A DNA stretch of 64,000 bases from Rozella allomycis CSF55. Lineage: Eukaryota. Shown in pieces: positions 1 to 49,400 of the stretch; positions within the stretch are counted from its first letter, which is position 1; each line of letters begins with the position of its first letter. The DNA is taken from NCBI GenBank assembly GCA_000442015.1, contig KE560907.1, positions 1-64,000 on the forward strand. Direction: 5' to 3'. The notes under the pieces were generated by a model. The model searched no databases, was not told where the DNA came from, and saw only the letters and a program-made list of their open reading frames with translations. The translations under genes were made by a program, and so were the position numbers.

Positions 1-139
1 TTATCAACATTGTGGCTGAAGCACACGGTTTTGGAGTAGTCCCAGACTTGATAATTTTTAACAAAGGCACGTTGAGAAAAATCTATTTTTAACTGGTACT
101 ATAAAAAGCAAACGTTTCCTACCCCTCGTTTCAAAGAAG

Positions 140-1112
140 ATGAAATACGGATATTATCTTTTTGCCCTTTCACTTGCATCTTGTTTTCCTAGTCCTGAAA
201 GTGCTGTGCCTAATTGCGAAAACGGAAAATCTATTGTAACTTATCCTGACAAAACAACTGAATGTGTTCCGAACGATCAAAAAATTCCAAACTGTGCAGT
301 CCAGTTGAGATCCAAGCGTCAATGCGAGATATGCACTATTGATTCAAACCTTGTTAATGGAGAATGCATAAGCAAACTGAAAGGATGTTTGAAGATGAAA
401 AATCCAGGCATTAGTCGAATGTTTGGAGTGCGACGAAAAAGAAACGACAAAAGCTACCGATAATACTTGTGTTCCAAAAATTGAAGGCTGTCGTAAACAT
501 AAATCTGATGGTACTTGCGAAGATTGTGGTGATCGTTTTAGTTCAAAAGACAAAAGAAAGTGCTATGCAAAGCCTGAGAACTGCAAAGATAGTGATGTTG
601 AAGAACTTGAAAATAGCGTAATTTGCAAAAGCTGTGATAAAGACTATGTGCTTCAATATGATCGTAGCAAAGGATGTACAACGTATTGCGCATTGAATCA
701 CGCTGTTCTTCAAGGTACACACCAATGTATGCCAATCCCAGAAAATCTGAGACCCAAAATTGATGAATGCGCATCTTCAAATAGATATATTGCTTTTGAC
801 AAAAATGAAGGTAAATTGACTTGTTTGAATCGAGATAATCTTGGCCCCTACAATGTTTTGCTTATGAGAACACAAGACATTTCTGGACAGTTCATTATCG
901 AATGTGTGAGAGACGGAAAATCGGTGCGCTGTGAAGATCAGGTGCAATATAGTGACGGTAACGACTTTTTGAAAAAATACGAGATTTCGAAGAGTAAGGC
1001 TCTCCTGGCCAAGAGCATAGCAGAACAAAAGTATGTTGCGTGGGATGGTTCTTTGGTTGATAACGATAACAGAGCTGGTGCATTTATATTGTACATTTCT
1101 AAAAAGGCTTAA
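140..1112 (+). CDS. Secreted cysteine-rich repeat protein (CxxC, VSP/furin-like repeats), split over two frames
   Basis: Signal peptide MKYGYYLFALSLASC and repeated K-I-x-x-C...C-x-x-C units in ORFs 140-463 and 423-1112. The frames can be joined by a 1-nt frameshift or by a possible 28-nt intron at 387-414. Confidence 0.6.
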
Positions 1113-1225
1113 TCAAATAAACAATAATTTAAAATTGTAATATCAATGTACATTTAAAACTATTTAAACTCCATTATTTGTTATCTTGTTAATGTTTCAG
1201 CGATCAGCAATGTGGCTTGTTTACA

Positions 1226-4200
1226 ATGACCACCGACAAACCCGCATCGATGCATCTATGGCTGTCTTCCTCGCTAGACCAGCTTCTGCAGAGCAAAGAG
1301 TTGCGCAAGCAGCCATCTCTTAAAGAAAAATGCCAAAAGGCGTTTAACAGCCTGAAGCGTAAAAACCACTGTATCATTTAATAGAAATCCAGAAGAACCC
1401 TGACGAGTTATTTGGCGATAGTTTTCAGGTTATAATAGAGAGTCTAGTTGAGAGTTTGCGGCATGTGTTGCGGAATGCGAATGTGATGGGGTCAGTGATG
1501 GATTCGCTGCAAAAGATCATGTCGCATCCGCTGATGAGTGAGGAGTGGATGGTTGGGGAGGAGAAGGCGAGTGAGATGGTGTGTAGGGTTGTGTGTGAGA
1601 TTGCGGAGGAGGTTAGTGATGAGAAGTGTTTTGTGGATTTTATAAAGGTAGTGGAGTGATGATTTGAGTTGAGTAGGTAATGTTTTTGAAGGTGTTTGAA
1701 AGGTGTTGTTGGCGGTAGTGACTGCCAAGGAGGCGTTGATACACCAGGCGTCGTTGCTGATGGTTATGAAGACGATATATAATATGTATTTGGCGAGCAA
1801 GCAGAGTGGGCAGCAGACGATGTTGAAGGGAGCGTTGAATCAAATGATCAATGCGGTGTTTGAGAGGTTGGAGAAGAGTTTCCAGGTAGGATGGGTGAAT
1901 GGATGGCAATCAAGGAGAATAGAGAGTTGTATTTGGAGATATTGGAGATGAAGAGTAAAAGTGAGCAAGAAGAAGCAGTGGAGGGGCAACTAGAGAGTCC
2001 TAAAGTCGGCGAGCGAAAAATGAGTGAAGAAATTAAAAACGTTGATAGAAAGGATAGTGGGAATGAGAGTGAAAGGCGTGCTAATGAGAGAATTGAGAAT
2101 GACGCTACAAGGAAAGACAGTGGACATTCTCAGCATAAGAATCAAGTTGAAACAGAGAAGAAGGAAGTTGAGGAGGTTGAGGTGGTTGAACAAGTTAAAG
2201 ACGTTGAGGGTCACCAACCTACCGATAAAGGAGAAATCGACAATAATCAGACAGATGCTGATGTTAGTAAAGTGCTAGAGAGTGTGTTGGGGGTAAGAAA
2301 AGAAGAAGAGGAAGAAAAGAAGGATGATGTGGGCAAGTATGGAAAGTGTATAAGTAAATAGACTAAACTTTGTAAAAGAGTGTGTGGAAAAGCAGCGAAT
2401 TTCCATTGCAAAGACACGATGGTTCCTGTGTGTGGCAAAGAGTGTAAAATTGAGCATTTGAATAAACTTGAAGAAGAAAGACACAAGCAGGACAAGGTTG
2501 AGAATGAGAGTGAGAATAAGAAGAATAGGATAAAGTGTGAAATGTATTTAAGGGTAAAATAGATTGATGTTGTTTAAAGGATGGGGTTGCGGTGTTGAGA
2601 ACATTTTATAAACTAGCTTCGAAGCCAATAATAGATGCGCCAGCTCCGCCACCAATAGGGCAGGGGTGGGATTTTAGTAAATCGCCGAGTGTGAAGAGTA
2701 GAATACTTGGGTTGGAGTTGTTGTTGTTTGTGTTGAAGAAATATAGTGCTAGTAAGAGACAGAAGGATGATTGAAAGGTTTGATAGAGATTGAAGTGATC
2801 AAGAGGTTTATTGGCAAGGAGATGATGGAACTGATAATCAGCAGTTTGGTGAATTCAATACCGCTTGTTAATGAGATTGGGCTTGAGATGATAATAATGA
2901 TAATGCGGGAGTATAGGCGGGAGTATAAGAAGCAGATTGATGTAGTTGTGAATGAGGTGTTGTTGAATGTGATGCCAGTGAATTCGACAGTGCAGATGAA
3001 GTATTTGGAGGGGTTGATGGAGTTTGATTGTCGGATGATTGTGGAGTTGTATTTGAACTATGATTGTGATTCAGAGGCGATTGATAATCTGTTTGAGAAG
3101 ACGATTAATTGTATTTTGAAGTTGATACAGAATTCTGGGAGTGAGGAGATTAAGATTAGGGCTATTCAGGCGCAGGTTGAGATTATTAAAAAGTTGAGTG
3201 TTGAAATTGAAGATGTAGAAGGGGTGAAGATGGATGGGGTAAAGGTAGAAGGTGTGAAGATGGAGGGGGTGAAGGGTGGTGAGGTAGAGAAGAGAGTTGG
3301 AGAAGAGAAGAGAGTAGAGGGTGATAGTGACAAATCACTTGAATTGAAAGACTCACATACAGTTAGAGAATCCAATGATGACCAACCAACTCCACCATCT
3401 CAAACACTTCAAACTACTACTTCAACTACTAATTCACCAACTACTGCAGATCCATCAGTGGTGAAGATGAGAAAACAAATGATTCAAGAGGGAATAAGAT
3501 TGTTTAATTGGAAACTGAAAAAGGGGATGGAATATTTTTTTGAACACAAGATAATAGAAAGAAACAAGAAAGAGATTGCCAAATTTTTGTTGACAACCGA
3601 GGGATTATCTAAAGAGAACATTGGCGAGTATTTGGGACAGGGAGAAGCTGAGAATATAGAGATAATGCATTGTTTTGTAGAATTGATGAATTTCCATGGA
3701 CTAAAGTTTGTTGAAGCGTTGAGGAAATTTCTGCAGTCGTTTAGACTACCTGGGGAGGCACAAAAGATTGATAGATTCATGTTAAAGTTTGCGCAGCAGT
3801 ACACGTTGAATAATCCGAAAGAGTTTGCGAATGCAGATACCGCGTATGTGTTGGCGTATTCTGTGATAATGTTGAATACGGATTTGCATAATCCGCAGGT
3901 GAAGAATCGGATGAAGAGGGAGGATTTTATCAAGAACAATAGGGGGATTAATGATCATGCGAATTTGAAGGATGAGTATTTGATTGAAATATATAATGAT
4001 ATTTCTGTGAATGAAATTAAAATGAAGAGTGAAGAGTTGATTAATAAGAATGTGAAAGAGTTTGCGAGTGTGAAGAGGAGGAAAGATTCTGTTAGTAATT
4101 CTGAAGATGTAGCCAAGAAAGCCATTGAAGATTTATCAAAGGTAAGCATTGTAATAGGTGAGATGACACAGGTAAGTTGTAATAGTTGAAATGATTACAG

Positions 4201-7200
4201 GTAAATATTACTACTTTAAACTATTCAAAGGTAAATACTACTACTTCAACTCAATACAGGTAAACTCTACAACTTTAACTCAACAAGGTAAACTCTACAA
4301 ACTCTAATTCAAATTTTCTTGGTTATTCGTTTAATAATTATTCTAAAAATATATTCAATTCATGTTGGATGATTTTTTTGAGTTCTATTTCAGGACCAAT
4401 ACAAGAATATGATAAATTGATGATAATAGATTCATGTTTGGAGGGATTCTATTATTCAATAAAGATATGCAGTGTTTATGATTTAAAATATGAAAGAAAT
4501 GCATTTATTAATAGTTTATTAAAATTTACAACAATTCAAACTAAAAATCAAATAAATTTAAAGAATTTAAAAGCAATAAAAATTCTATTGGAAATTTCAG
4601 TAAAATTTGGTGATTATTTAGAATCAAATTGGATTGAAATTTTAAAATGTATTTCTTTGTTAGAAAAATTAGAGTAAATTTTAATTTTGTTTATTTCAAA
4701 GTGAAATTCAGCAATTTAGTTTGTTGATTGATAAAATATTTTCAAATTCACATAAATTGAATTCTAATGCTATTCTACAGTTTGTTAATGCTTTGTGTTC
4801 TGTTGCTATTGATGAGATTAATGTTAAGAGATTGTATTCTATTCAGAAATTAGTTGAAATCTCTTATTACAATATGAATAGAATTAGATTAGAGTGGTCA
4901 AACATTTGGAACATTATCAGCAACACTTTTACTCAAGTAATGAAAGGGTTGTTGAAATGATCATAGGTAGGAGATTGAAGTTGAAATGAGATTAGGTAAG
5001 ATATTTGGAGTTGTAATCATCATAGGTAATCTCGCTACTTGTCCCTTATTATAGGTCGCTTGTAATGTAAATTTGAATATCGCCAATTTCTCTATTGATT
5101 CTTTAAGACAATTAAGCTTTAAATTTCTTGAAAAAGAAGAAATGTCGCAATTCAAATTTCAAAAAGAATTTCTAAAACCATTTGAAGAAATATTCATTGA
5201 ATCTAATCTAGATATTAAAGATTTTGTCATTCGATGTTTACTTGTCATTATTCAAGGTATAATAGAATATAATATTTAATGAAAGGTATAATAGATTAAA
5301 TAAGTTAATGAAAGGTAAAATAGATTGTAGCATCTAATTCAAGGTAATCCACTTTAAAGTTTCTCAATGAAAGGTAAACTACTTTAAAGTTTCTCAATCA
5401 AAGGTAAACTACTTTAAACTACTTAATTAAAGGGAGGGGAAAAAATATAAAATCTGGTTGGAAAAGCATCTTTAACGTTCTATCGTTGGCTGCTCTAGAA
5501 ACAAATGAAAATATTTGTTTATTATCCTTTGATGCAGTCAAATACGTCTGCAAAGAAAGATTAAAAGATCTCGTCTTGAACAATTCATTCTCTGATCTCG
5601 TTCAATCTCTCGTTTCTTTTGCTAAAAACAAGAAATACCCAAAAATAAAGTATTCAATCTCTCTTCATCTTTTCTAGTTTACAAGCAGTTGAATTACTAA
5701 AGAGTGCCATCCCAAGAGTGGCAGAGTTGTGTAGATCAGAACACGAGAGAATAGAAAATGAAATTAATTCAAGCCAAAATGATCTCATCCTCAATTCTTA
5801 TCAAGATGAAGATCCTTCTGTCAGATTCTGGTTTCCAATCCATTTTGGTCTCTATGAAATTCTAATGGAAGGAGATCTGGAAGTTAGAACTCGAGCTTTA
5901 AACTATTTATTCGATTGTCTCAAAGATTACGGAAATTCTTATTCTCAAAGATTCTGGTCTGTCGTTTACAAAAAAGTATTCTCTCCATCCATCTAATTTA
6001 GGTTATTCTACTCATCTTTGTTGATTTAAACAAGAAATCGCCATTAACAACTGAATTCAAAACTGAATGGCAGAGCACAACTCTTGTCCAGGCTTTGCGC
6101 AATGTCATCAATCTATTCTCCTTCTTTTTCGACGATATCCACTTTCTCTTGTCTGATATTCTCTCTCTTCTCTCTCTATGCATCAACCAGGGTACATTAT
6201 CCGAAATTTCATAAATAGAAAATGAGACGTTGGCTAGGATTGGCACCAGTTGTTTGCAGCAGCTGGTCGAAAACAACTATAAGAAATTGGATGCGTCCAT
6301 GTGGCATTTGATTTGCGGGTGTATTGAAGAGCTGGTCGAGTCTACGATGCCTAGAGATTTGTTTCAGTTTGAAAGTAAACAAGGCGATCAAGTTGACGAA
6401 TCTGATATTGAAATAAAAGAACTAAAAGGTGTATTGTGTTTAAATAGTTTAGTTAGAAAGCTCTAGCGGAGAGTTGAATGCCATCGACCTGCCGATCGTT
6501 TCAACGGAAAAGAGGCAGCTGTTCCAATCAATTGTTATCAAGTGTATTCTGCAGCTGCTGATTCTAGAAACAATTAATGAAACGATTGTTGTCCACAAGA
6601 GTGTTTATTCGACAATGAACTGCGATCATATTGTGAGGGTTCTGGATTGCTTGAATAATTCGTATCAGACTGCTAAAGCGTTTAATATGAATATAAGGCT
6701 GAGGCTCAATTTGTTGTCTATTGGTATGGTTGCTGTGTGGGTGATAAAGGGTTTACGAAGCAGCTGCCGAATTTGTTGAAGCAGGAGACTACGAGCATTA
6801 CTGTTTATCTTTCTTTGATCAACAAGGTAACAAATAGTTTTTAGATTTGTTAATAGGTAACAAATAGTTTTTAAATTGATTATAGGTAATATTTAATTAT
6901 TTGGTCTATTTAAAAGGTAATATTTAATTCTTTAATCTATTTAAAAGGTAATATTTAATTCTTCTAAATAAAAGGTCTATTTCGATCAGTCAGGATACAA
7001 CAAGCCGCTCAAATCAGANGAATTAGTTTTTAGATTGATTATAGGTAATAAATAGTTTTAAAATTTGTTATAGGTAAAAATCATGTATTAAATTGATCAA
7101 AGGTAACATTTAACTATTTAGTCTATTTAAAAGGTAACACTTAATTATTTGGTCTATTTAAAAGGTCTATTTCGATCAGTCAGGATACAACAAGCCGCTC

Positions 7201-7494
7201 AAATCAGAAATAGAAAAACGATTCATTGATCTAACGCAAGACGTATTAACTCACTATTCAAAATTAGATCCTGAATACAAGCACAAAATTGCAGCAGCTT
7301 GGAAACCAGTCGTGTTAAAAGTCTTGTCAATCTTTAAAAATATCAACGACGACGCATTTGTGTTGTTTGTGCCGAGGTTATACGACTCGCTGGTCAGGCT
7401 GCTGGATCATGATCTGTCCATTGAAACTAGAGTAGAGCTAAAGTTTATCTTGCTGAGAATCGGCAATTTGTTTGGTATTGTCAATAAAAACTAA
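1226..7494 (+). CDS. SEC7: Large ARF guanine-nucleotide exchange factor (Sec7/BIG family), multi-exon
   Basis: HUS motif YLNYDCD, Sec7 domain FRLPGEAQKIDR and LAYSVIMLNTDLHN, HDS motifs SIQKLVEISYYNMNRIRLEW, IDSLRQL, NIKSGWK, ENETLARIGTSCLQQL, LPNLLKQET. Traced by hand from ATG 1226 through GT-AG introns. Confidence 0.96.
1648..1702 (+). other. Compound intron: 2 abutting GT-AG mini-introns (1648-1676, 1677-1702)
   Basis: Units of 29 and 26 nt. Removing both joins FIK to VLLAVV in frame; removing only the first leads to a stop. Confidence 0.8.
4142..4287 (+). other. Compound intron: 5 abutting GT-AG mini-introns (30, 29, 30, 29, 28 nt)
   Basis: Units start at 4142, 4172, 4201, 4231 and 4260, each gtaa...ag. 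Removal joins EDLSK to VNSTNS...CWMIFL, in frame with ORF 4369. Confidence 0.85.
4937..5054 (+). other. Compound intron: 4 abutting GT-AG mini-introns (30, 29, 30, 29 nt)
   Basis: Units start at 4937, 4967, 4996 and 5026. Removal gives conserved FTQ|VACNVNLNIANFSIDSLRQL. Confidence 0.87.
5257..5432 (+). other. Compound intron: 6 abutting GT-AG mini-introns (29, 29, 29, 30, 30, 29 nt)
   Basis: Units start at 5257, 5286, 5315, 5344, 5374 and 5404. Removal gives conserved IIQG|RGKNIKSGWK. Confidence 0.87.
6827..7164 (+). other. Compound intron of 5 mini-introns (6827-6974; 30, 29, 31, 31, 27 nt) plus a second haplotype version (7020-7164)
   Basis: Units start at 6827, 6857, 6886, 6917 and 6948, and the exon resumes GTCTATTTCGAT at 6975. 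After the N at 7019 a different unit series (7045, 7074, 7103, 7134) precedes the same exon at 7165. Confidence 0.82.
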
Positions 7495-7566
7495 ATCTAA
7501 TCCATTTATATATATTTGTTTGAATAATATTTTAGACTGACTTTATTCTATTTCTATATGAGTAAA

Positions 7567-8277
7567 CTATTCGCTTATAATCTCGGCATTGTCGTTCATA
7601 AATTGCTGCAAAAAATCAACAACCAGAGGCTCCTTTAAAGCACTCAGTTTATACTCTTGCAAAGTCTATCACATCAACAATTATCAATTACCAGCTGGTT
7701 GTCTCCATTCACATCGATATCCTCAAAAATTCTTTCCACAATTTCCTTGATCCTCTGGCTCTGATCCTCATTATAGAATGTAGAGTACTCTCAAAAAACC
7801 ATCAAAACATTACCATTGAATTCATAATCCTCTGCAGCTCCTTTTTCGTCAGAAACCCATCATGGTCAATATCATAAATCCTAAACGAAACTATCACCCA
7901 ACATCCATAAAAATTTACACTCGAGCTTCTCCTCTGGCGTCCCCTTGAGCAGAATATTCAGACCCTGCACAAACTCTTCCAGATCAATTGATTTATCATG
8001 ATTGACATCGAATGCATCAAACAGCCGCTCCAGGAACAGCGAGCCGGCGCTCCACTGCTGGAAGTATTTTTTGATCGTCTTTTTTGGGCGTTTAATCATG
8101 TTACATTCACAAACTGCTGTTTGGTGATCGTGTTGGATTCGCCCTGGCATGAACGCTCGAATTCGTTTCGCAGAGCAATGATCTCCGCTAGTGAGACTAT
8201 GCTGGTTGGGAGTGTGTCTTACAGTGTGTATGCGAGGCTAGCTCGCCCGCTTGGCGTTTGGAACTTGTGTTGCCCAT
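7567..8277 (-). CDS. Myristoylated EF-hand calcium sensor (NCS-1/frequenin/recoverin family)
   Basis: N-terminus MGNTSSK (MGxxxS motif), EF-hand FDAFDVNHDKSIDLEEFVQGL, GTPEEKL, and a further DVNGDNQL loop. Short introns. Confidence 0.85.
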
Positions 8278-8430: not shown

Positions 8431-11416
8431 ATGACGCGTCTGGAATCGAAAAAGTAAATGCGATGATTCGGGAATATAGAACGGAGACTAATGCTTCAAA
8501 ATTAAGCTTTGATTTCAGAAGAGGGTCTAGACAGTCCATAACCGGATCAAAAATCTCACTTACCAAGACGGGCTCCATTGCTCGAATCAGGCAAAGCATT
8601 ATGCCTGATAATGTGCCGCAGGCTAATATTCAAGTGTTGGACGATCAGGGGAATGATGTCACACCGGTTTCACTGATACCAAAGAAGAAGACCCAGGGAA
8701 TGGCTAATTCTGGCTCCACTGATACTAAACGATCACACAGCAGTATTGTAAGGTTTATCATGAAAGATTAATAGTCGGAGCAGACGCAGGATTTCTTGCA
8801 CCAGTTTGAATTGAAGCAAATCTCAAATGTTTCGCAGGGNGAATTGAAGCAAATCTCTAATGTATCGCAGGGCGTTTCGAAGAAAGCTCCCACGTCGAAA
8901 TCTCAGTCTACAATGTCTGAAGATGTTGAAGATTCTTCTTCTTATACATCATACGACGATATTCAAGAGTCTCGTGAGCGTAACAGAATACTTTTCTTCG
9001 TGTCATAGAAATAATGGAAGACAAGAACCAACCAGCAATACAGGCAAAGGCATTGACAGAAAAAGACCTTAATATGAAAATCAATATCATTCTAAAAGAA
9101 ACTGAAGACATTTTATTGTATGACTTTCAAGGTAAATGTATTATTCAATGTTTGTAGGTTACTTTGTTCCACCAGATTCAATTGAAATGGATATGGCCAA
9201 AGCACAGAATATGAGATATCAGCAGGTTACATTCAGTTATAATCAATATTAGATTTTAGAGTCGAGAAGCAGAGCGGTTAATTTNTTAAATTTAGTTATA
9301 ATCAATAGTAGATTTTGGAGTCGAGAAGCAGAGCGGTCAATTTAGTTGAGCGAGGAATGCAAACATTACCAAGACTATATAAAAATAAAGACACTCAAGC
9401 TACCGCAAGAAAGCAAATAAATGTTGAATCACAAGTTAATGAGTGGAGCATTTTTGATATTTATGAAGAATTAGCAAGGGAAGAAAATCAAAAGTAAGAA
9501 AAGATAATTTTCATGTTACAGAAACGCGGATGCTCTGGAAGGAGATCCATTGGCTCTGAATAATGCCAAAAGTGATTCTCAGGGATTTAAAGAGAGTGGA
9601 AATATGACTGAAATATCTGAAGATCTATTTGCGTCAATGGATATAGATACAGTGTCAGAGTTTGCTTCATTAATGAGTACAGAAGCTACTGGCAATTCTG
9701 TGTCGGCAGCTCCAGGAGCACAAACTGCTCAGGGCAAACAACTTCAAATGCTTATGCAAGCTGAAATACCAAAACTTTCTCAATTTGATCAAGAATCTTT
9801 GATGGAATCTCTGCGAATAATGGAGAATGCTATTGTAGAAAACAATAATTTTGCAAAACTTTTTGCTTATAGAAATATTAAAGATCCAATGGAGAGAGAA
9901 ATTTCAAATGAATCCAATAATGATCTTGTTGACGACAATGAAGAACAAGCCGAGTCCAAAGTTGTTTCTGATGTTAATTCTTTAGCAACTCACCTTCCTT
10001 CTCTGCAGAATCTTTGGACATTTAGATGTGATCTTGTGAAAGGAAGACCAGTGTTGGGAATAGCATGGAATAAGAAAGACTCTGTACTTTAATTTGAACA
10101 TCTTAAGAATAGGATATTCTAGCTGTTTGCTATGGTGAAATGAATGCATTGATTCCAGGGTCTTCTGTCCATGCAAAGACTAAAGGGGTTGTTCTTTGTT
10201 GGTCTCTTTCAAACATTGAAGTAAATTGTTTTTGAAATGATAAAAGTATCCACAAAGAATTTACAAAAAAGATTCGGCAGCCATCTGTGTTGACTTTTCT
10301 AGTTGTAATCCATACCTTTTAGCTGCTGGTTTCGCCGATGGTAGCATTAGAATTTATGATGTCAGAGAAAGGCATGACGAAGCAGTTTTAGATTCATCGT
10401 AAGAAAATTAACTTTAATAAATATTTGTGAAACTGGTGGAAAGCACCATGAGGCCGTTTGGGATGTAAGATGGATAGAACGTGAAAAGCTCAACGGAGAA
10501 GAAAATTCACAAAAGGAAAGCCTAATTTCGGTTTCAAATGATAGCAGAATTTGCCAATGGATGTTGCGAAAGGGGTTAGAATATTCTGGTAACGTTTTGT
10601 CAGCATTTTTGTGAGATTTAATGGTTATGAGAAGAATATCAAAAGCTCAAACAAGTGAAAAGAATATGACATCATCTGTTATCTCTAGACATACTGGAGG
10701 TCTTTGCTTGGAATTCCACCCAGAAGATTCCGCCATGTAAATATACCATTGTAAAAATAAAAGATATCTAGTAGGAACAGAGGACGGGGATATTCATAGA
10801 TGTTCTTGTTCTTACAATGAGCAATATCTGGAAACATACATTGGGCATTCTGGGCCAGTCTATAAAGTTAAATCATCGCCATTCTTAAGTTCTGCTTTTC
10901 TTTCGTGCTCAGCCGATTGGTCTGTTTGTCTTTGGACTTTGGAAAACACCACGCCAACATTTAAATTTCAATCTGGAAGAGACGCAATCACAGATGTTGC
11001 TTGGTCACCCTTGAGTTCAACTGTTTTTGCCAACACGACAAAAGATGGAAGAATTGAAATTTGGGATCTTCGATCATCCACGTAAGTTTTATTTATATTT
11101 AGCATCAGACTCGATCCATGTGTGACTCATACAGTTCTTGACAGAGTTTTGACTTGCGTTTCATTTGCACCAGACGGGCCAATTGTTTTAACTGGTGATG
11201 ACAATGGGTCTATTTCAGTGTATAAACTAACTAGAGTGTNCAGTGTATAAACTAACCAGAGTGTATTCAGAGGCAGTGATGGAACGAATCACATCAAGAA
11301 TTTTAGGAAGTAACTCAAATTTGTACAATGCTGAAAACGATAGAAAATATCAAGCGCAAGAGTTGCAAGATATTTTGAAAAACAAAAATTTGCTTTTGGA
11401 AAATAAAAAGAAATAA
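8431..11416 (+). CDS. WD40 axonemal dynein intermediate chain (WDR78/DNAI4-like)
   Basis: LWTFRCDLVKGRPV..WN, YPQRIY, KHHEAVWDVRW, YLVGTEDGDIHRCSCSYNEQYLETYIGHSGPVY, FLSCSADW. Multi-exon. Confidence 0.85.
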
Positions 11417-13054: not shown

Positions 13055-15183
13055 TTATAATTCCAGATGGTAAAAACCATCTGAATCAAGTGATGAAGAT
13101 TCGGTTAGCAAAAGGCTATCATCGCATGCTGCTGGTGTTGAAAACCCTTTTAATTATGAAATAAACATTTGATTACTAATCAAATATTCACATTTATTTG
13201 GTTCTTCACAAGATTCAAAAGTTTCCTTGTCAGAACATTCCAATTGAACCTTTAGAAGAATAAATCAATTCATTTACTTTAACAGAACGATAAGGTCCAT
13301 TCCAACATTTATCCCCATTTTTATAATCCATAACTGAATAATTTTCGCTTTCATTCCATCCAGAAAATTTTCCTAACGAAATTGTTTCAGATCCAGTGTG
13401 TTGTGTTACTTTATCAAACAAGCACAATTCAAATTCATAACTATTCTTAAATTAATTTAAATTTACGATAAAGATTTTAATTTGAAACATTTATTCACCA
13501 ATGGCCAAAATTCATTACTCTTCCCAACATCCAATTGAAGCTTCTTGTTTAAATCTTTAATTTGTGAATCTATTTCTTCAATTTCAGAATTCATTTTATC
13601 AATTTCAATCTTTTTCTTTTCAATCTCACTTTTGGCATTCGCTTCTCCGCTTCTAAAGGAATCAATTGCTGTCTTGACAAACTTTAATGGAGAAAGCCAA
13701 CTTTTATCCTTCTTCTTCAAATCTTCGTTTTCTTCTTCTTTGCTGTCTTCATACGTTTCTTCATCATTTAAAAAGTCGCGATATTCATCCCTCGCTTCTA
13801 CAGCCAATTCTGATGAAATTTCACCATCAATGTTAATTTTATCCAAAATATTTTTCAATCTTTCTATTTTATCGTTTTCAGTTGGAGTGCCTATTTTTTC
13901 TTCTTCAACTTTTAAGACTTCATCTAATTCTTTCTTTTTATTTTCTGCTTCCTGTAATTGTAACTTTAGATACTCTAATTTCTTTTCAAGATCTTTCAAT
14001 TTATTCAATTCCTTCTCTCTTTCCTGTTTCCCAGTTTCAATATATCTTTTCTTTNTGGCATTCGCTTCTCCGCTTCTAAAGGAATCAATTGCTGTCTTGA
14101 CAAACTTTAATGGAGAAAGCCAACTTTTATCCTTCTTCTTCAAATCTTCGTTTTCTTCTTCTTTGCTGTCTTCATACATTTCTTCATCATTTAAAAAGTC
14201 GCGATATTCATCCCTCGCTTCTACAACCAATTCTGATGAAATTTCACCATCAATGTTAATTTTATCCAAAATATTTTTCAATCTTTTTATTTTATCGTTT
14301 TCAGTTGGAGTGCCTATTTTTTCTTCTTCAACTTTTAAGACTTCATCTAATTCTTTCTTTTTATTTTCTGCTTCCTGTAATTGTAACTTTAGATATTCTA
14401 ATTTCTTTTCAAGATCTTGCAGTTTAATCAATTCCTTCTCTCTTTCCTGTTTCCCAGTTTCAATATATCTTTTCTTCNTTGTAATTGTAACCTTAGATAT
14501 TCCAATTTCTTTTCAAGATCTTGCAATTTATTAAATTCCTTCTCTCTTTCCTGTTTCCTAGTTTCAATATATCTTTTCTTTACTTTCAAACCTTCCTCAA
14601 CAACTTTTAAAGTCTCCAATTTGCTTAGATTTTCCAACTTGTTTATCTCAGCACATTTTGAAGGACAATCAATTCTTCCGTCATATTCATCAGACCCATC
14701 ACAACAGTCTATTAAAAAAGTTATATATCATTTACCACACACTCCATCGTTTACTCTTGAAGACTTTATAAATCCAGGTACATGTCCCTTATTGATGCAA
14801 TAGAATTTGCCATTTTGACACGCAAACGTTCCTACCTCTATTTGACCCACATTGAATACCAGGCTCGTCAGTTCCATCCTCACAATCGCAAAATCCATCA
14901 TTAACTGAGGCTATCGGAATCGTTTTAGAATTAGAATCGCAATTGAATACCGGTCCTTTATACAATTCATGCTCTAATTATGATATCGTTATAATCTTAC
15001 TATTTGGAGGAACGCCTTTAATTACATCAGCATGAGTTTCGTAAAGTAGGAACAATATTGGATACAAACATGCTAAAAGCATCCTACTGCGCCACGGCTA
15101 CGACATCTGGNGACACCTTTAATTACATCAGTGTGTATTTGGCAGAATAGGAACAATATTGGGTACAAACATGCTAAAAGCAT
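13055..15183 (-). CDS. GTB1: Glucosidase II beta subunit (PRKCSH family); internal duplications are assembly artefacts
   Basis: [31 protein letters not shown], coiled coil, MRH domain [14 protein letters not shown] and EPNKCEY. C-terminal HLEL is HDEL-like. The first exon is present twice (ATG 15082 and 15183). Confidence 0.92.
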
Positions 15184-15316
15184 CCTACTGCGCCACGGCT
15201 ATGGCATCTGTATCATCTAAACTATATATAAATCTTCATCCAAACCAATTATTGCTACTTTCTTGGTTTTCCAATCAACTTTGATAAATGCTGATTGACA
15301 ATCCTGCGCCACAAAC

Positions 15317-46415: not shown

Positions 46416-49400
46416 ATGATTGGCCTCTCTCTATTTTTCATTCTGTCGGTGCACATTCTGTGCCTAAATTCATACTTATTTAATTCATGTTCGGGCGGTA
46501 CTCTTGATTGTGCGAAGCAAAATATTAATAACCCGCTGTCAACGACTGTTCAAAATAATTCAATTCCGTGCACCTATATTGGGTGCCCATCAATACAGTT
46601 GAATATACCATCGGGAACATATGCAATCTCAAATAAGGTTTTCGACGGATGCGTTACGTTTGGTCAATCAGCGCCATTCTTTTACGCTAGCTCATCAGCA
46701 TTTTACAATACTCTAGTCTTACAAAATGTGACATTCAGAAACTGCAAGACTCCATCTGGATTAATTATAACAATGTCTGTAAATTTGGTTTTACGAAATT
46801 TGACTGTTCAAAACAATACCTCTACCGGATCGATTTTAAGTTTAGAGAAATTTTGGACTACAAAAATACATGATAGTGTTTTTGAAAATAATTACAATGA
46901 GGAAAACGGAGGGGCCCTAGAGTTGTTGGGAATGATAACCAGTACAACAGCATACGATGTGTCTGTACTGGAGATTGGTGGTAAATTTCTATGTCGGAAC
47001 AATACATCCAAAGGATTAGGAGGTTGTTTATTCATGAGCAATATCCAGCTTAACTTTTTACAAGATAACGTGAATATCGAAATGTCGAAAAACAATGCAA
47101 CTAGAGGTGGTGCTATCTATTGGGAACAGATGTATCCAAAAGTTGATTCAATCTCATCTTTATCGAGGAATGTTTTAATGAACTTTACATCCAATGTGGC
47201 AACGTATTCTGGAGGTGCATTGTATTTGGATGGTGTCAATTTCTATGGTTTTCTTTCAAATTTAGTTATGGATGGAAACCAAGCATATTACGGCGGTGCA
47301 TTTACTATAGATAATTCATTTATTACAATGATTGGAATATTTACCAACAACTTTGCATCGTATGGTGCTGTATTTTGTATAAACAGAACTTCTGATGCAT
47401 CATCTTTAACAATTGGGGGAAATGTTAGAGGAAATTATGCGAAATATAGTGGAAGTTTTGGGCATCTTGTTGTTTTTAATTCGTCATATTTGATTCTGGA
47501 TAGCGTTTATGTTGGAACAGATATAAACTTTAGTTCAAACGATTTGACTCCAGTATCATCATGTGTGTTTTTGATAAATTCGTCACAATATTATTGCCAG
47601 ATGTCGATAGATAGATCAATTATTTATGGATCCACTAGAGCTGTTACAAGCACCTCAAGTATGATAAGTTCCACGAAGGCAAGGTTAAGCAGCAGTATGT
47701 CATCGACAGTAGCATCATCAACAGTTTCTAGTTCAAAATCGCAAACTTCATCAACATTACAAACCGCCTCAATCTTGACTACATCTTCATCAAAGCAAAC
47801 TGTAGAATTTACTATTTCTTCTTTTTCATCTTCGTCATACTTAGGCCGCGTTTCGATAACGTCAAGCACTTCTTTTCAAACGTTTTCCCCGAGTTATGAA
47901 TCAAAAATAAGCAATAGTTTTATAACGGAAGCATTTACTGATTTTCAAACAAGTAGAACAACATCTTTAACTGCGTCTTCTATTCAATCAATATCAACAC
48001 CCTTATTTATAGGATCGACTTTGTCATCTACAGTGACGACGCCTATCCAATCATCATCTACATCATCAACTGTAAAATCAACATCTACAGCATCTTCAGC
48101 CTCTTCATCANTCGAGTTATGAATCAAAAACAAGCAATAGTTTTACAACGGAAGCATTTACTGATTTTTCAACAAGTAGAACAACATTTTCAAGTGCGTC
48201 TTCTATTCAATTAATATCATCATCAATATCAACACCCTTATTTATAGGATCGACTGTGTCATCTACAGTGACGACGCCTATCCAATCTTCATCTACATTA
48301 TCAACTGCAAAATCCACATCTACAACATCTTCAACGTCTTCATCAACCGTATCATCCTCAGCATTCTCAACTACAGTATCAACAACGCTATCATCATCTA
48401 CATCACCATCTACAATAATGGAATCCAAGCAATCAAAATCTACATTAATATTTACATTAACATCTTCTACAATGTCATCTTATATGACCATACAGTCAAC
48501 ATCTGCAATATCAAAATCTACAGTATCAACGTATACACTTTATGCNTATGCAATCAACATCTATATTAACATCTTCTACAATGTCATCTTATATGGTCAT
48601 ACAATCAACATCTGCAATATCAAAATCTACAGTATCAACGTATACACTTTATGCTTCTACATTTACTTCTTTAATGCCTTCAATATCTTCTACGCTCTTA
48701 TCTTCTACAGTCNNNNNNNNNNNNNNNNNNNNNNNNNNNNNNNNNNNNNNNNNNNNNNNNNNNNNNNNNNNNNNNNNNNNNNNNNNNNNNNNNNNNNNNN
48801 NNNNNNNNNNNNNNNNNNNNNNNNNNNNNNNNNNNNNNNNNNNNNNNNNNNNNNNNNNNNNNNNNNNNNNNNNNNNNNNNNNNNNNNNNNNNNNNNNNNN
48901 NNNNNNNNNNNNNNNNNNNNNNNNNNNNNNNNNNNNNNNNNNNNNNATTATATTATTTCTAGTTCTACAGAATCAAGTAGTTCTTTAACAACTTCATCTA
49001 TAACTGGAATGACTGCAGCTTCATCAGTTGCATTTCCAATAACAACTGTACTAGTTGGATCTGCAACAGGAGCGACTGTTTTAGCGGCCATGTTAGGAAT
49101 TTTAGTTTATTTTAGAAGAAGAAAACAAGGATTGAAAAGAAATAATAAAACTAAAAAGCAATTAGCTTTAAGTGGAGTCAACCTTTTACAAAATAAATCA
49201 AGAGAAAATATTTCACAGAAACTAAAAATAGATCCAATTATTGTTAAAGATTCAATTAAATTTAAGAATGAAAATAAATTGTATTTTGATCCTGATAAAA
49301 CTTACAATGTAAATTTAAATCATTCAAAGATTGTAAACATGAATGATGTCTCTCAATTCATTGCAAAAGTCATAAGAAAAGATTCAGACGCTACAATGTC

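What the first reader, a model, noticed from the sequence alone, without database searches (positions are those of the whole stretch)
1648..7164. Long introns built entirely from stacked mini-introns: candidate recursive / zero-length-exon splicing system
Seen: ordinary introns here are about 26-31 nt. The only much longer introns I found are five in SEC7: 1648-1702, 4142-4287, 4937-5054, 5257-5432 and 6827-6974. Each divides with no leftover bases into 2, 5, 4, 6 and 5 units of 26-31 nt. All 22 units begin GTA and end AG, so the internal junctions read AG|GT. Removing all units restores the frame and conserved Sec7 motifs (IK|VLLA, FTQ|VAC..IDSLRQL, QG|RGKNIKSGWK). None of the five total lengths is a multiple of 3. 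Unit interiors have diverged, while the ends and length are kept, which suggests selection on each unit as a spliced intron. Known: recursive AG|GT ratchet sites occur in very long Drosophila and vertebrate introns, and nested stwintrons occur in ascomycetes. Inference: this spliceosome may only excise about 29-nt pieces, so longer introns survive only as concatemers removed one unit at a time. I do not recall this architecture being described.
Basis: partly seen in the sequence, partly recalled or inferred. Interest (0 to 1): 0.93.

Follow-up and report, generated by a model that had tools for sequence, protein, structure and literature searches.

The report
Tandem stacks of complete mini-introns
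One gene of a fungus-related microbe whose introns are only about 26-32 bases long carries five introns made of 2-6 complete mini-introns joined head to tail, which suggests that introns here lengthen only in whole units and are probably cut out one unit at a time.

Summary
A 1710-aa Sec7/BIG ARF-GEF gene (1226-7494, +) has five sites that tile without remainder into 22 units of 26-31 nt. Every unit is GTA...AG.

- **Reading frame:** removing all units gives a protein that aligns without gaps to nine fungal homologues across four of the five junctions.
- **Chance:** chains of 4 or more units occur nowhere else in the 64 kb, in 0 of 50 shuffles, and in none of 66 related loci.
- **Reality:** an independent contig spans all five stacks. 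A diverged sample differs by 27 nt, the length of one unit, and by +57 nt, about two units. Two alleles of stack 5 were assembled side by side at an N gap.
- **Origin:** neighbouring units are 69% identical on average against 50% for unrelated introns, so the stacks arose by tandem duplication.
- **Selection:** all internal AG|GTA joints are intact although the interiors have diverged.

I found no RNA data and no whole genome. Unit-by-unit (zero-length-exon) splicing is therefore the best-supported inference, not a demonstrated fact. My literature searches found no description of this architecture.

The parts
1226..7494 (+). Sec7/BIG-type ARF-GEF gene. The model is 1710 aa, with 11 single-intron sites and 5 stacks.
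   Evidence: Model built. Pfam Sec7, HUS and HDS hits. All homologues listed are Sec7-domain or BIG/ARF-GEF type proteins, and the named ones are mostly fungal.
1648..1702 (+). Stack A: 2 units (29 and 26 nt) with exon context AG|..|GT.
   Evidence: The homologue alignment is gap-free across the junction. Retaining either unit gives a premature stop.
4142..4287 (+). Stack B: 5 units (30, 29, 30, 29, 28 nt) in a variable linker after the Sec7 domain.
   Evidence: TRF finds period 28-29. Units 1 and 3 are multiples of 3 without stops, so retaining either would add 10 aa.
4288..4312 (+). The first 25 nt of the downstream exon are a further copy of the stack-B unit that lacks an acceptor AG and is read as coding.
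   Evidence: Local alignment of 25 nt, p about 0.003 against 300 shuffles. A TRF array runs 4228-4312.
4937..5054 (+). Stack C: 4 units (30, 29, 30, 29 nt) at an intron position shared with distant fungal relatives.
   Evidence: In 22 of 66 related loci the tblastn match breaks at this residue with a 26-55 nt gap. The single GT..AG intron was read directly in 4 of these loci.
5257..5432 (+). Stack D: 6 units (29, 29, 29, 30, 30, 29 nt) that split the HDS domain.
   Evidence: Pfam HDS profile positions 1-46 lie before the stack and 48-83 after it. Sample X6 has 62 letters where the window has 5 (+57 nt).
6827..6974 (+). Stack E: 5 units (30, 29, 31, 31, 27 nt).
   Evidence: Sample X6 lacks 27 nt at 6942, which equals the length of the last unit.
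6975..7208 (+). Assembly duplication at an N (7019). It holds a second allele of stack E (7020-7164; four whole units of 29, 29, 31 and 31 nt plus a 25-nt remnant of a fifth unit cut by the gap) and a repeat of the exon start (6975-7018 equals 7165-7208).
   Evidence: TRF period 190, 2 copies. Alignment. Loose ends of X2 and X5 at 6847 read like the second copy.
1359..6749 (+). Eleven single introns of the same gene: 1359-1384, 1886-1914, 2348-2380, 2554-2579, 2752-2777, 4674-4701, 5650-5677, 5976-6001, 6192-6218, 6429-6456 (GTG donor) and 6724-6749. They are 26-33 nt long.
   Evidence: Minimum-intron search and model.
3215..3274 (+). Two in-frame 30-nt repeats inside an exon that also read GTA..AG. 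I treat them as a coding repeat; splicing is not excluded.
   Evidence: Chain scan. TRF periods 30 and 15.

Best explanation
Each stack is a tandem array of complete mini-introns.

**Origin (inferred).** A founder intron of about 29 nt was duplicated precisely at the DNA level. The AGGT microhomology that flanks an intron sitting between an exon-final AG and an exon-initial GT probably helped. The array then grew and shrank by whole units, like a minisatellite.

**Why it is tolerated (follows from the sequence).** In this organism a functional intron needs little more than GTA(A)...T.A(A/T)AG within 26-32 nt, so every copy is itself an intron. Each internal joint reads AG|GTA(A), which is a 3' site abutting a consensus 5' site, that is, a zero-length exon. 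Removing any unit leaves a shorter valid stack. Every order of removal therefore ends in the same mRNA.

**Mechanism (inferred).** The stack is cleared by repeated rounds of ordinary mini-intron splicing, most likely 5' to 3' as it is transcribed. Selection keeps each unit's own splice sites because a merged unit of about 58 nt would be spliced poorly.

**What is shown and what is not.** The anatomy, the tandem-duplication origin, the unit-number variation and the conservation of the joints are shown. The splicing pathway is inferred.
For: **Anatomy and reading frame.**

**Tandem origin.**
- Interior identity of the 17 adjacent unit pairs averages 0.69. It is 0.58 for 25 non-adjacent pairs in the same stack and 0.505 for 1326 pairs of unrelated single introns.
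- TRF independently finds period 28-31 arrays at stacks B, C, D and E.

**The DNA is real and varies by whole units.**
- One X1 contig spans 1200-7018.
- X6 shows a 27-nt gap, equal to the last unit of stack E, and +57 nt in stack D.

**Joints are kept while interiors drift.**
- All 17 of 17 internal joints are intact. About 26 changes at the five joint positions would be expected if they had diverged like the interiors.
- Between the two alleles of stack E, 22 of 22 joint columns are identical against 91 of 125 interior columns (P about 0.0009). The adjoining exon is identical at 44 of 44 columns.

**Units share the extended consensus of single introns.** This consensus was not used to define the units.
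- A at +4: 18 of 22 units against 38 of 52 single introns.
- A at -4: 18 of 22 against 38 of 52.
- T at -6: 17 of 22 against 30 of 52.

**Exon context.** AG before and GT after the site is seen in 3 of 5 stacks against 1 of 52 single introns (Fisher p=0.0013).

**Cost of failure.** Retaining any single unit gives a premature stop for 20 of 22 units.

**Intron length in the window.** No convincing intron longer than 33 nt was found outside the stacks. The 52 hand-picked single introns are 26-32 nt. The four MCM6 breaks have gaps of 23-32 nt.

**Structure.** Folding gives no unusual structure that could bring the outer sites together, with z-scores from -1.06 to +2.12 for 4 of the 5 stacks (D was not folded).
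Against: - No RNA evidence of any kind exists here: no junction reads, lariats or intermediates.
- Whole-stack removal gives the same product.
- The 52 single introns were chosen by hand from 108 candidate clusters. I required a GTA start and 24-34 nt, so the length ceiling is partly built into the set. My scan for longer introns was too noisy to exclude them.
- Units were defined by the AG|GTA motif, and alignments favour matching that motif, so the P values are rough.
- All five stacks lie in one gene: 5 of 16 sites there against 0 of 43 elsewhere (p=0.0009). A general length rule does not predict this.
- Units (mode 29-30 nt) are longer than single introns (mode 26-27 nt; Mann-Whitney p=0.0001). 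This is unexplained.
Confidence: 0.6

Rival explanations
1. The stack is a neutral minisatellite inside one ordinary long intron. The spliceosome joins the first GT to the last AG in a single step, and the internal sites are unused relics of recent duplication.
For: Most spliceosomes handle 55-176 nt without difficulty. The units are clearly tandem duplicates, and some adjacent pairs are 84-88% identical and so are young. No RNA data contradict this reading.
Against: - Older units have diverged to background identity (0.38-0.50), yet 17 of 17 internal joints are intact. The +4, -4 and -6 consensus positions are also kept.
- Between alleles, 22 of 22 joint columns are identical against 73% identity in the interiors.
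- No merged unit of about 58 nt and no other long intron was seen in the window.
Confidence: 0.2
2. Some units are facultative coding segments. Units that are multiples of 3 and carry no stop (4142-4171 and 4201-4230, and perhaps the 30-nt repeats at 3215-3274) are sometimes retained, giving protein isoforms with linkers of different length.
For: Retaining B1 or B3 keeps the frame and adds 10 aa. The site lies in a linker whose length varies among nine homologues. A unit copy without an acceptor is already read as exon at 4288-4312.
Against: This applies to only 2 of 22 units. The other 20 give premature stops. There is no RNA or protein evidence.
Confidence: 0.1
3. The units are a mobile, introner-like mini-intron family that inserted repeatedly at AG|GT proto-splice sites, for example by reverse splicing.
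For: AG|..|GT context is enriched at the stacks. Four of the five stack positions have no intron in any of 66 related loci.
Against: - Identity between units of different stacks is 0.526 against 0.505 for unrelated introns, which is close to background.
- Similarity falls off with distance inside a stack, as expected for local tandem duplication.
- No copies occur in other genes of the window.
Confidence: 0.05
4. The stacks are assembly artefacts, that is, collapsed or duplicated reads.
For: The assembly does duplicate sequence at N gaps, including at stack E.
Against: An independent 7046-nt contig of run X1 carries the whole stretch with 60 substitutions and 11 gaps. Contigs of X2, X5 and X6 cover the stacks. 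The reading frame needs every stack removed exactly.
Confidence: 0.02

Closest known systems
Recursive splicing at zero-nucleotide exons (ratchet points) in Drosophila and vertebrate long introns, plus one fungal case, the C. neoformans BOT1 375-nt intron. Sources: abstract of bioRxiv 10.1101/006163 and passages of bioRxiv 10.1101/224170. Hatton 1998 and Burnette 2005 are recalled.
   Same: An internal AG|GT joint where a 3' site abuts a regenerated 5' site, so the intron is removed in successive steps without an intervening exon.
   Different: In those cases one or a few ratchet points subdivide long introns made of unrelated sequence. Here the whole intron consists of 2-6 complete 26-31-nt introns born by tandem duplication. 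Stepwise removal has not been shown here.
Intron gain by tandem genomic duplication at AGGT. The Rogers 1989 model is recalled. Abstracts of Hellsten 2011 (PMC3265369) and of the potato RdRp case (PMC4974935) were seen.
   Same: A tandem duplication bounded by AGGT supplies a new donor-acceptor pair. The stack-B array runs 25 nt into the exon. AG|..|GT context is enriched at the stacks.
   Different: Known cases create one intron from duplicated exon sequence. Here an intron-sized unit is itself duplicated repeatedly, and similarity to the exon is seen at only 1 of 5 stacks.
Stwintrons (spliceosomal twin introns) of ascomycetes. Start of the abstract of PMC8469720 seen.
   Same: Complex intervening sequences that need more than one splicing reaction.
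   Different: In a stwintron an internal intron interrupts a splice signal of the external one, so removal is nested and has an obligatory order. Here the units abut, each is complete, and any order works.
Uniform tiny introns in other lineages: microsporidia (passages of PMC6349667), Paramecium (about 25 nt; abstract of 10.1101/2021.08.05.455221), and Stentor, Blepharisma and nucleomorphs (listing).
   Same: A narrow intron length class near 25-30 nt with minimal signals.
   Different: I found no report of head-to-tail stacks in these systems. The 'tandem' passages in PMC13685798 and PMC12862383 concern gene duplication or general lists of mechanisms.
Introner-like elements of fungi and algae. 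Start of the abstract of PMC3609843 seen.
   Same: Multiple related introns that arose by copying.
   Different: Introners are dispersed, longer and structured. Here the copies are local, are 26-31 nt long and show no unusual predicted structure.

Membership tests
Recursive (zero-length-exon) splicing | An internal 3' splice site directly abuts a 5' splice site (AG|GT). | tested here: met
   All 17 of 17 internal joints read AG|GTA, and 14 of 17 read AG|GTAA.
Recursive (zero-length-exon) splicing | Stepwise removal seen in RNA, as partial junctions, lariats or saw-tooth coverage. | not testable with these tools
   No RNA holder was listed, and the single read-laying run covered DNA contigs only.
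Recursive (zero-length-exon) splicing | Ratchet sites are conserved beyond the neutral rate. | tested here: met
   Between alleles, 22 of 22 joint columns are identical against 91 of 125 interior columns. Among paralogous units, no change was seen at the joint positions where about 26 were expected. Both tests are rough.
Intron origin by tandem duplication at AGGT | Tandem copies with a similarity gradient. | tested here: met
   Adjacent units 0.69, non-adjacent 0.58, background 0.505. TRF finds arrays.
Intron origin by tandem duplication at AGGT | AGGT at both outer borders. | tested here: inconclusive
   Both borders carry it in 3 of 5 stacks, and each border taken separately in 4 of 5. Among single introns, 1 of 52 has both. 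The sample is small.
Intron origin by tandem duplication at AGGT | The intron sequence is a copy of adjoining exon sequence. | tested here: inconclusive
   Significant only for the exon downstream of stack B (p about 0.003). The other 9 of 10 flanks were not significant.
Stwintron | An internal intron interrupts the donor, branch site or acceptor of an external intron. | tested here: not met
   Units abut at complete AG|GTA joints, and each has its own ends.
Introner-like mobile introns | A dispersed family of near-identical introns in many genes. | tested here: not met
   Identity between stacks is 0.526 against 0.505 background. There are no stacks or copies in other genes of the window. The whole genome was not available.
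Sec7/BIG ARF-GEF (host gene) | A Sec7 domain with HUS and HDS homology regions. | tested here: met
   Pfam Sec7 E=4.6e-76, HUS 1.8e-09, HDS 4.6e-14 and 3.1e-09.

The most novel reading that the evidence does not exclude
In this lineage the spliceosome has a hard upper length limit near 32 nt. Introns can then lengthen only in quanta of one complete mini-intron, and stacks are cleared by obligatory unit-by-unit splicing across zero-length exons, with up to six rounds at one site. Precise tandem duplication at AG|GT sites would also be a live route of intron birth. Four of the five stack positions have no intron in any of 66 related loci, and one array still runs into its exon.
Probability: 0.3. 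Interest if true: 0.85.

Novelty: new variant of a known kind. Interest (0 to 1): 0.68.

Why it matters
If the units are spliced one by one, these stacks are a natural experiment on how a spliceosome measures intron length. They would also be the densest known case of zero-length-exon splicing, and they would show introns growing and being born by simple tandem duplication.

The stacks are a practical trap as well. Gene finders and read mappers with a minimum or maximum intron size will mis-model such genes.

The claim is directly testable by RT-PCR across one site.

Tried and rejected
- **Whole genome.** None is held, so the genome-wide periodicity test could not be run.
- **RNA.** No RNA holder was listed. 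The one RNA run with the same species label held next to none of the words.
- **Earlier scan notes.** There was nothing for this genome or sequence. The hits for 'introns tandem' were unrelated archaeal or phage cases.
- **Own annotated protein.** Two protein searches with the Sec7 exon gave no near-identical protein; the best was 42% over 90% or more of the query. I could not see how annotators modelled the stacks.
- **Relatives.** The metagenome scan gave 66 loci, with a best identity of 59-60%. None is a close relative. The only chains of 4 or more units in 585 kb (three overlapping chain calls in locus L011) were a 14-nt microsatellite.
- **Scan for long introns (61-400 nt).** It gave 61 clusters, mostly extensions of short introns or joins between genes, and was too noisy to use. 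I read 18 candidates of 32-60 nt by eye and judged none convincing. That is my judgement, not a test.
- **Common family across stacks.** The effect is tiny and the pairs are not independent.
- **Exon-derived origin.** Not supported for 9 of 10 flanks.
- **Known RNA families.** 0 Rfam matches in 1-8000 at E up to 1.
- **Structure.** No unusual folding in 4 stacks.
- **Sample X6.** It also shows gaps of 4 and 13 nt inside unit B1. Because 24 rows of that table were not shown, I cannot say whether a whole unit is missing there.
- **Substitutions.** Of the substitutions listed, 17 fall inside stacks and none hits a GTA or AG. Only 40 of 239 rows were shown, so I give this little weight.


Full report
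**What is there.** The window is eukaryotic, with about 35% G+C and standard stop codons. No whole genome is held for it. On the + strand, 1226-7494 encodes a 1710-aa Sec7/BIG-type ARF-GEF once 11 single introns (26-33 nt) and five longer intervening stretches are removed. Pfam finds Sec7 (E=4.6e-76), HUS and HDS on the exons. The named relatives listed for the Sec7 exon are mostly fungi. The best named relative of a neighbouring MCM6 exon is Paramicrosporidium, at 56% identity. From this I infer only that the organism is fungus-related.

**The observation.** Splitting the five stretches at AG|GTA gives 2, 5, 4, 6 and 5 units of 26-31 nt with nothing left over. All 22 of 22 units are GTA...AG. 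The stretch lengths are 55, 146, 118, 176 and 148 nt, and none is a multiple of 3. The HDS profile ends at position 46 just before stack D and resumes at position 48 just after it. Nine full-length fungal homologues align without a gap across junctions A, C, D and E. Junction B lies in a linker of variable length.

**Chance and controls.** Chains of 4 or more such units occur only in this gene within the 64 kb. In 50 shuffles the longest chain was 2 units in 43 shuffles and 3 units in 7. Two-unit chains are at chance level (12 seen, 13 expected), so stack A depends on frame and homology. In 585 kb from 66 related loci, the only chains of 4 or more units (three overlapping chain calls in one locus, L011) were a 14-nt microsatellite.

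**The stacks are not an artefact, and they vary by whole units.**
- One 7046-nt contig of run X1 carries 1200-7018 in a single piece, with 60 substitutions and 11 gaps.
- The more diverged X6 lacks 27 nt at 6942, which is the length of the last unit of stack E.
- X6 also has 62 letters where the window has 5 in stack D. That is +57 nt, about two units, although its contigs break inside that stack.
- The stretch 6975-7208 is an assembly duplication around the N at 7019. It repeats the exon start and holds a second allele of stack E.
- Loose ends of X2 and X5 at 6847 read like that second allele.
- Duplications of the same kind flank other N gaps in the window.

**Origin.**
- Interior identity averages 0.69 for the 17 adjacent pairs. 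It is 0.58 for 25 non-adjacent pairs in the same stack, 0.526 for 189 pairs between stacks, and 0.505 for 1326 pairs of unrelated single introns. This gradient is what local tandem duplication followed by drift produces. It does not fit a dispersed family.
- TRF independently reports period 28-31 arrays at stacks B, C, D and E.
- The exon context AG|..|GT is present on both sides of 3 of 5 stacks but of only 1 of 52 single introns (Fisher p=0.0013). An intron flanked in this way carries AGGT at both ends, and I infer that this microhomology favours precise one-unit duplication.
- Stack C sits at an old intron position. In 22 of 66 related loci the protein match breaks at that residue with a 26-55-nt gap. 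I read a single GT..AG intron between the Gln and Val codons in four of these loci.
- At the positions of stacks A, B, D and E, none of the loci shows a break, and 31-55 of the 66 loci have an unbroken match there.
- The stack-B array continues for 25 nt into the downstream exon (p about 0.003). Either a terminal unit lost its acceptor and became coding, or exon sequence seeded the array.

**Are the units kept as introns?**
- All 17 of 17 internal joints are intact, although some units in the same stack have fallen to 0.38-0.50 identity. If the five joint positions had diverged like the interiors, about 26 changes would be expected.
- Between the two alleles of stack E, 22 of 22 joint columns are identical against 91 of 125 interior columns (P about 0.0009). 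The next 44 exon bases are identical.
- Units share the consensus of ordinary introns at positions that were not used to define them. A at +4 occurs in 18 of 22 units against 38 of 52 single introns. A at -4 occurs in 18 of 22 against 38 of 52. T at -6 occurs in 17 of 22 against 30 of 52.
- Retaining a single unit gives a premature stop for 20 of 22 units. The other two (B1 and B3, 30 nt each) would add 10 aa in the variable linker.
- These tests are rough. The units were defined by the motif, and units in a stack are related to one another.

**Is there a length ceiling?** From 108 candidate clusters I hand-picked 52 single introns with a GTA start and 24-34 nt. Nine are in this gene and 43 are elsewhere. 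Their lengths run 26-32 nt, with a mode of 26-27. I left out clusters with non-GTA donors or ambiguous alternatives. MCM6 has four breaks against two homologues, with gaps of 23-32 nt. Eighteen longer or odd candidates that I read by eye were unconvincing. A scan for introns of 61-400 nt was too noisy to use. Within this window, therefore, nothing except the stacks exceeds about 33 nt, but the set is partly selected for that.

**Mechanism.** Each internal joint is a 3' site followed at once by a consensus 5' site. Removing any unit, or any run of units, leaves a valid shorter stack, so every splicing path gives the same mRNA. I infer repeated rounds of ordinary mini-intron splicing, probably in the order of transcription. 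Selection against merged units would explain why the joints are kept. Folding shows no structure that would bring the outer sites together, and Rfam finds no known RNA in the region. One-step removal is not excluded.

**What remains unexplained.**
- All five stacks lie in one gene: 5 of 16 sites there against 0 of 43 elsewhere (p=0.0009).
- Units are longer (mode 29-30 nt) than single introns (mode 26-27 nt; p=0.0001).
- The 5' half of the gene has a very different composition from the 3' half.

**Literature.** Eight searches and the passages around 'tandem' in two 2026 papers on tiny introns gave no description of head-to-tail stacks of mini-introns. Zero-nucleotide-exon recursion is known in Drosophila (abstract). 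It is also reported for one 375-nt intron of Cryptococcus neoformans (passages). Intron gain by tandem duplication at AGGT is known from single cases (abstracts).

**Verdict.** The tandem-duplication origin and the conservation of the joints are well supported. Unit-by-unit splicing is likely (about 0.6) but unproven. I class this as a new variant of recursive splicing and of duplication-born introns.

Noticed in passing
window 8808-8872, 9227-9343, 11215-11264, 13629-14476, 14371-14580, 15015-15210, 48456-48655 (each spans an N run): Two-copy tandem duplications, 88-98% alike, sit exactly around N gaps, as at 6835-7208. They look like uncollapsed overlaps or alleles at scaffold gaps. Genes crossing them (for example the ORFs at 13463-14534) will be mis-modelled.
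   Followed up: partly
window 1226-4141 versus 4288-7494 (Sec7 exons): There is a sharp compositional break inside one gene. At third codon positions the 5' half has C 0.07 and G 0.41, while the 3' half has C 0.16 and G 0.18. GC skew is 0.50 for 2001-4000. Stack A units share the G-rich, C-poor make-up of their exons. The cause is unknown.
   Followed up: partly
window 3215-3274: Two in-frame 30-nt repeats in the linker before the Sec7 domain also read GTA..AG and have no stops. They could be coding repeats (there is a 15-nt sub-period) or a sixth stack that is optionally spliced.
   Followed up: no
window 4937-5054; loci L004, L005, L010, L020 near their matches: The phase-0 intron between the conserved Gln and Val (..FNQ|VGC..) of BIG/Sec7 proteins is shared by 22 of 66 metagenomic fungal-type loci. 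It sits in a CAG|GT context in 3 of the 4 loci I read directly (CAA|GT in L020). This is an old proto-splice-site intron.
   Followed up: partly
window 140-1112: A cysteine-rich gene with a signal-peptide-like start changes frame near 414-453. The only candidate introns there have non-GTA donors (GTC, GTG), so this may be an atypical intron or a sequencing frameshift.
   Followed up: no
window-wide, 52 single introns: Single introns show a shared 3' motif, T at -6 and A at -4 before (A/T)AG, and GTAA at the 5' end. The conserved A only 4 nt from the acceptor may be the branch point. Lengths that are multiples of 3 are not depleted (16 of 52).
   Followed up: partly
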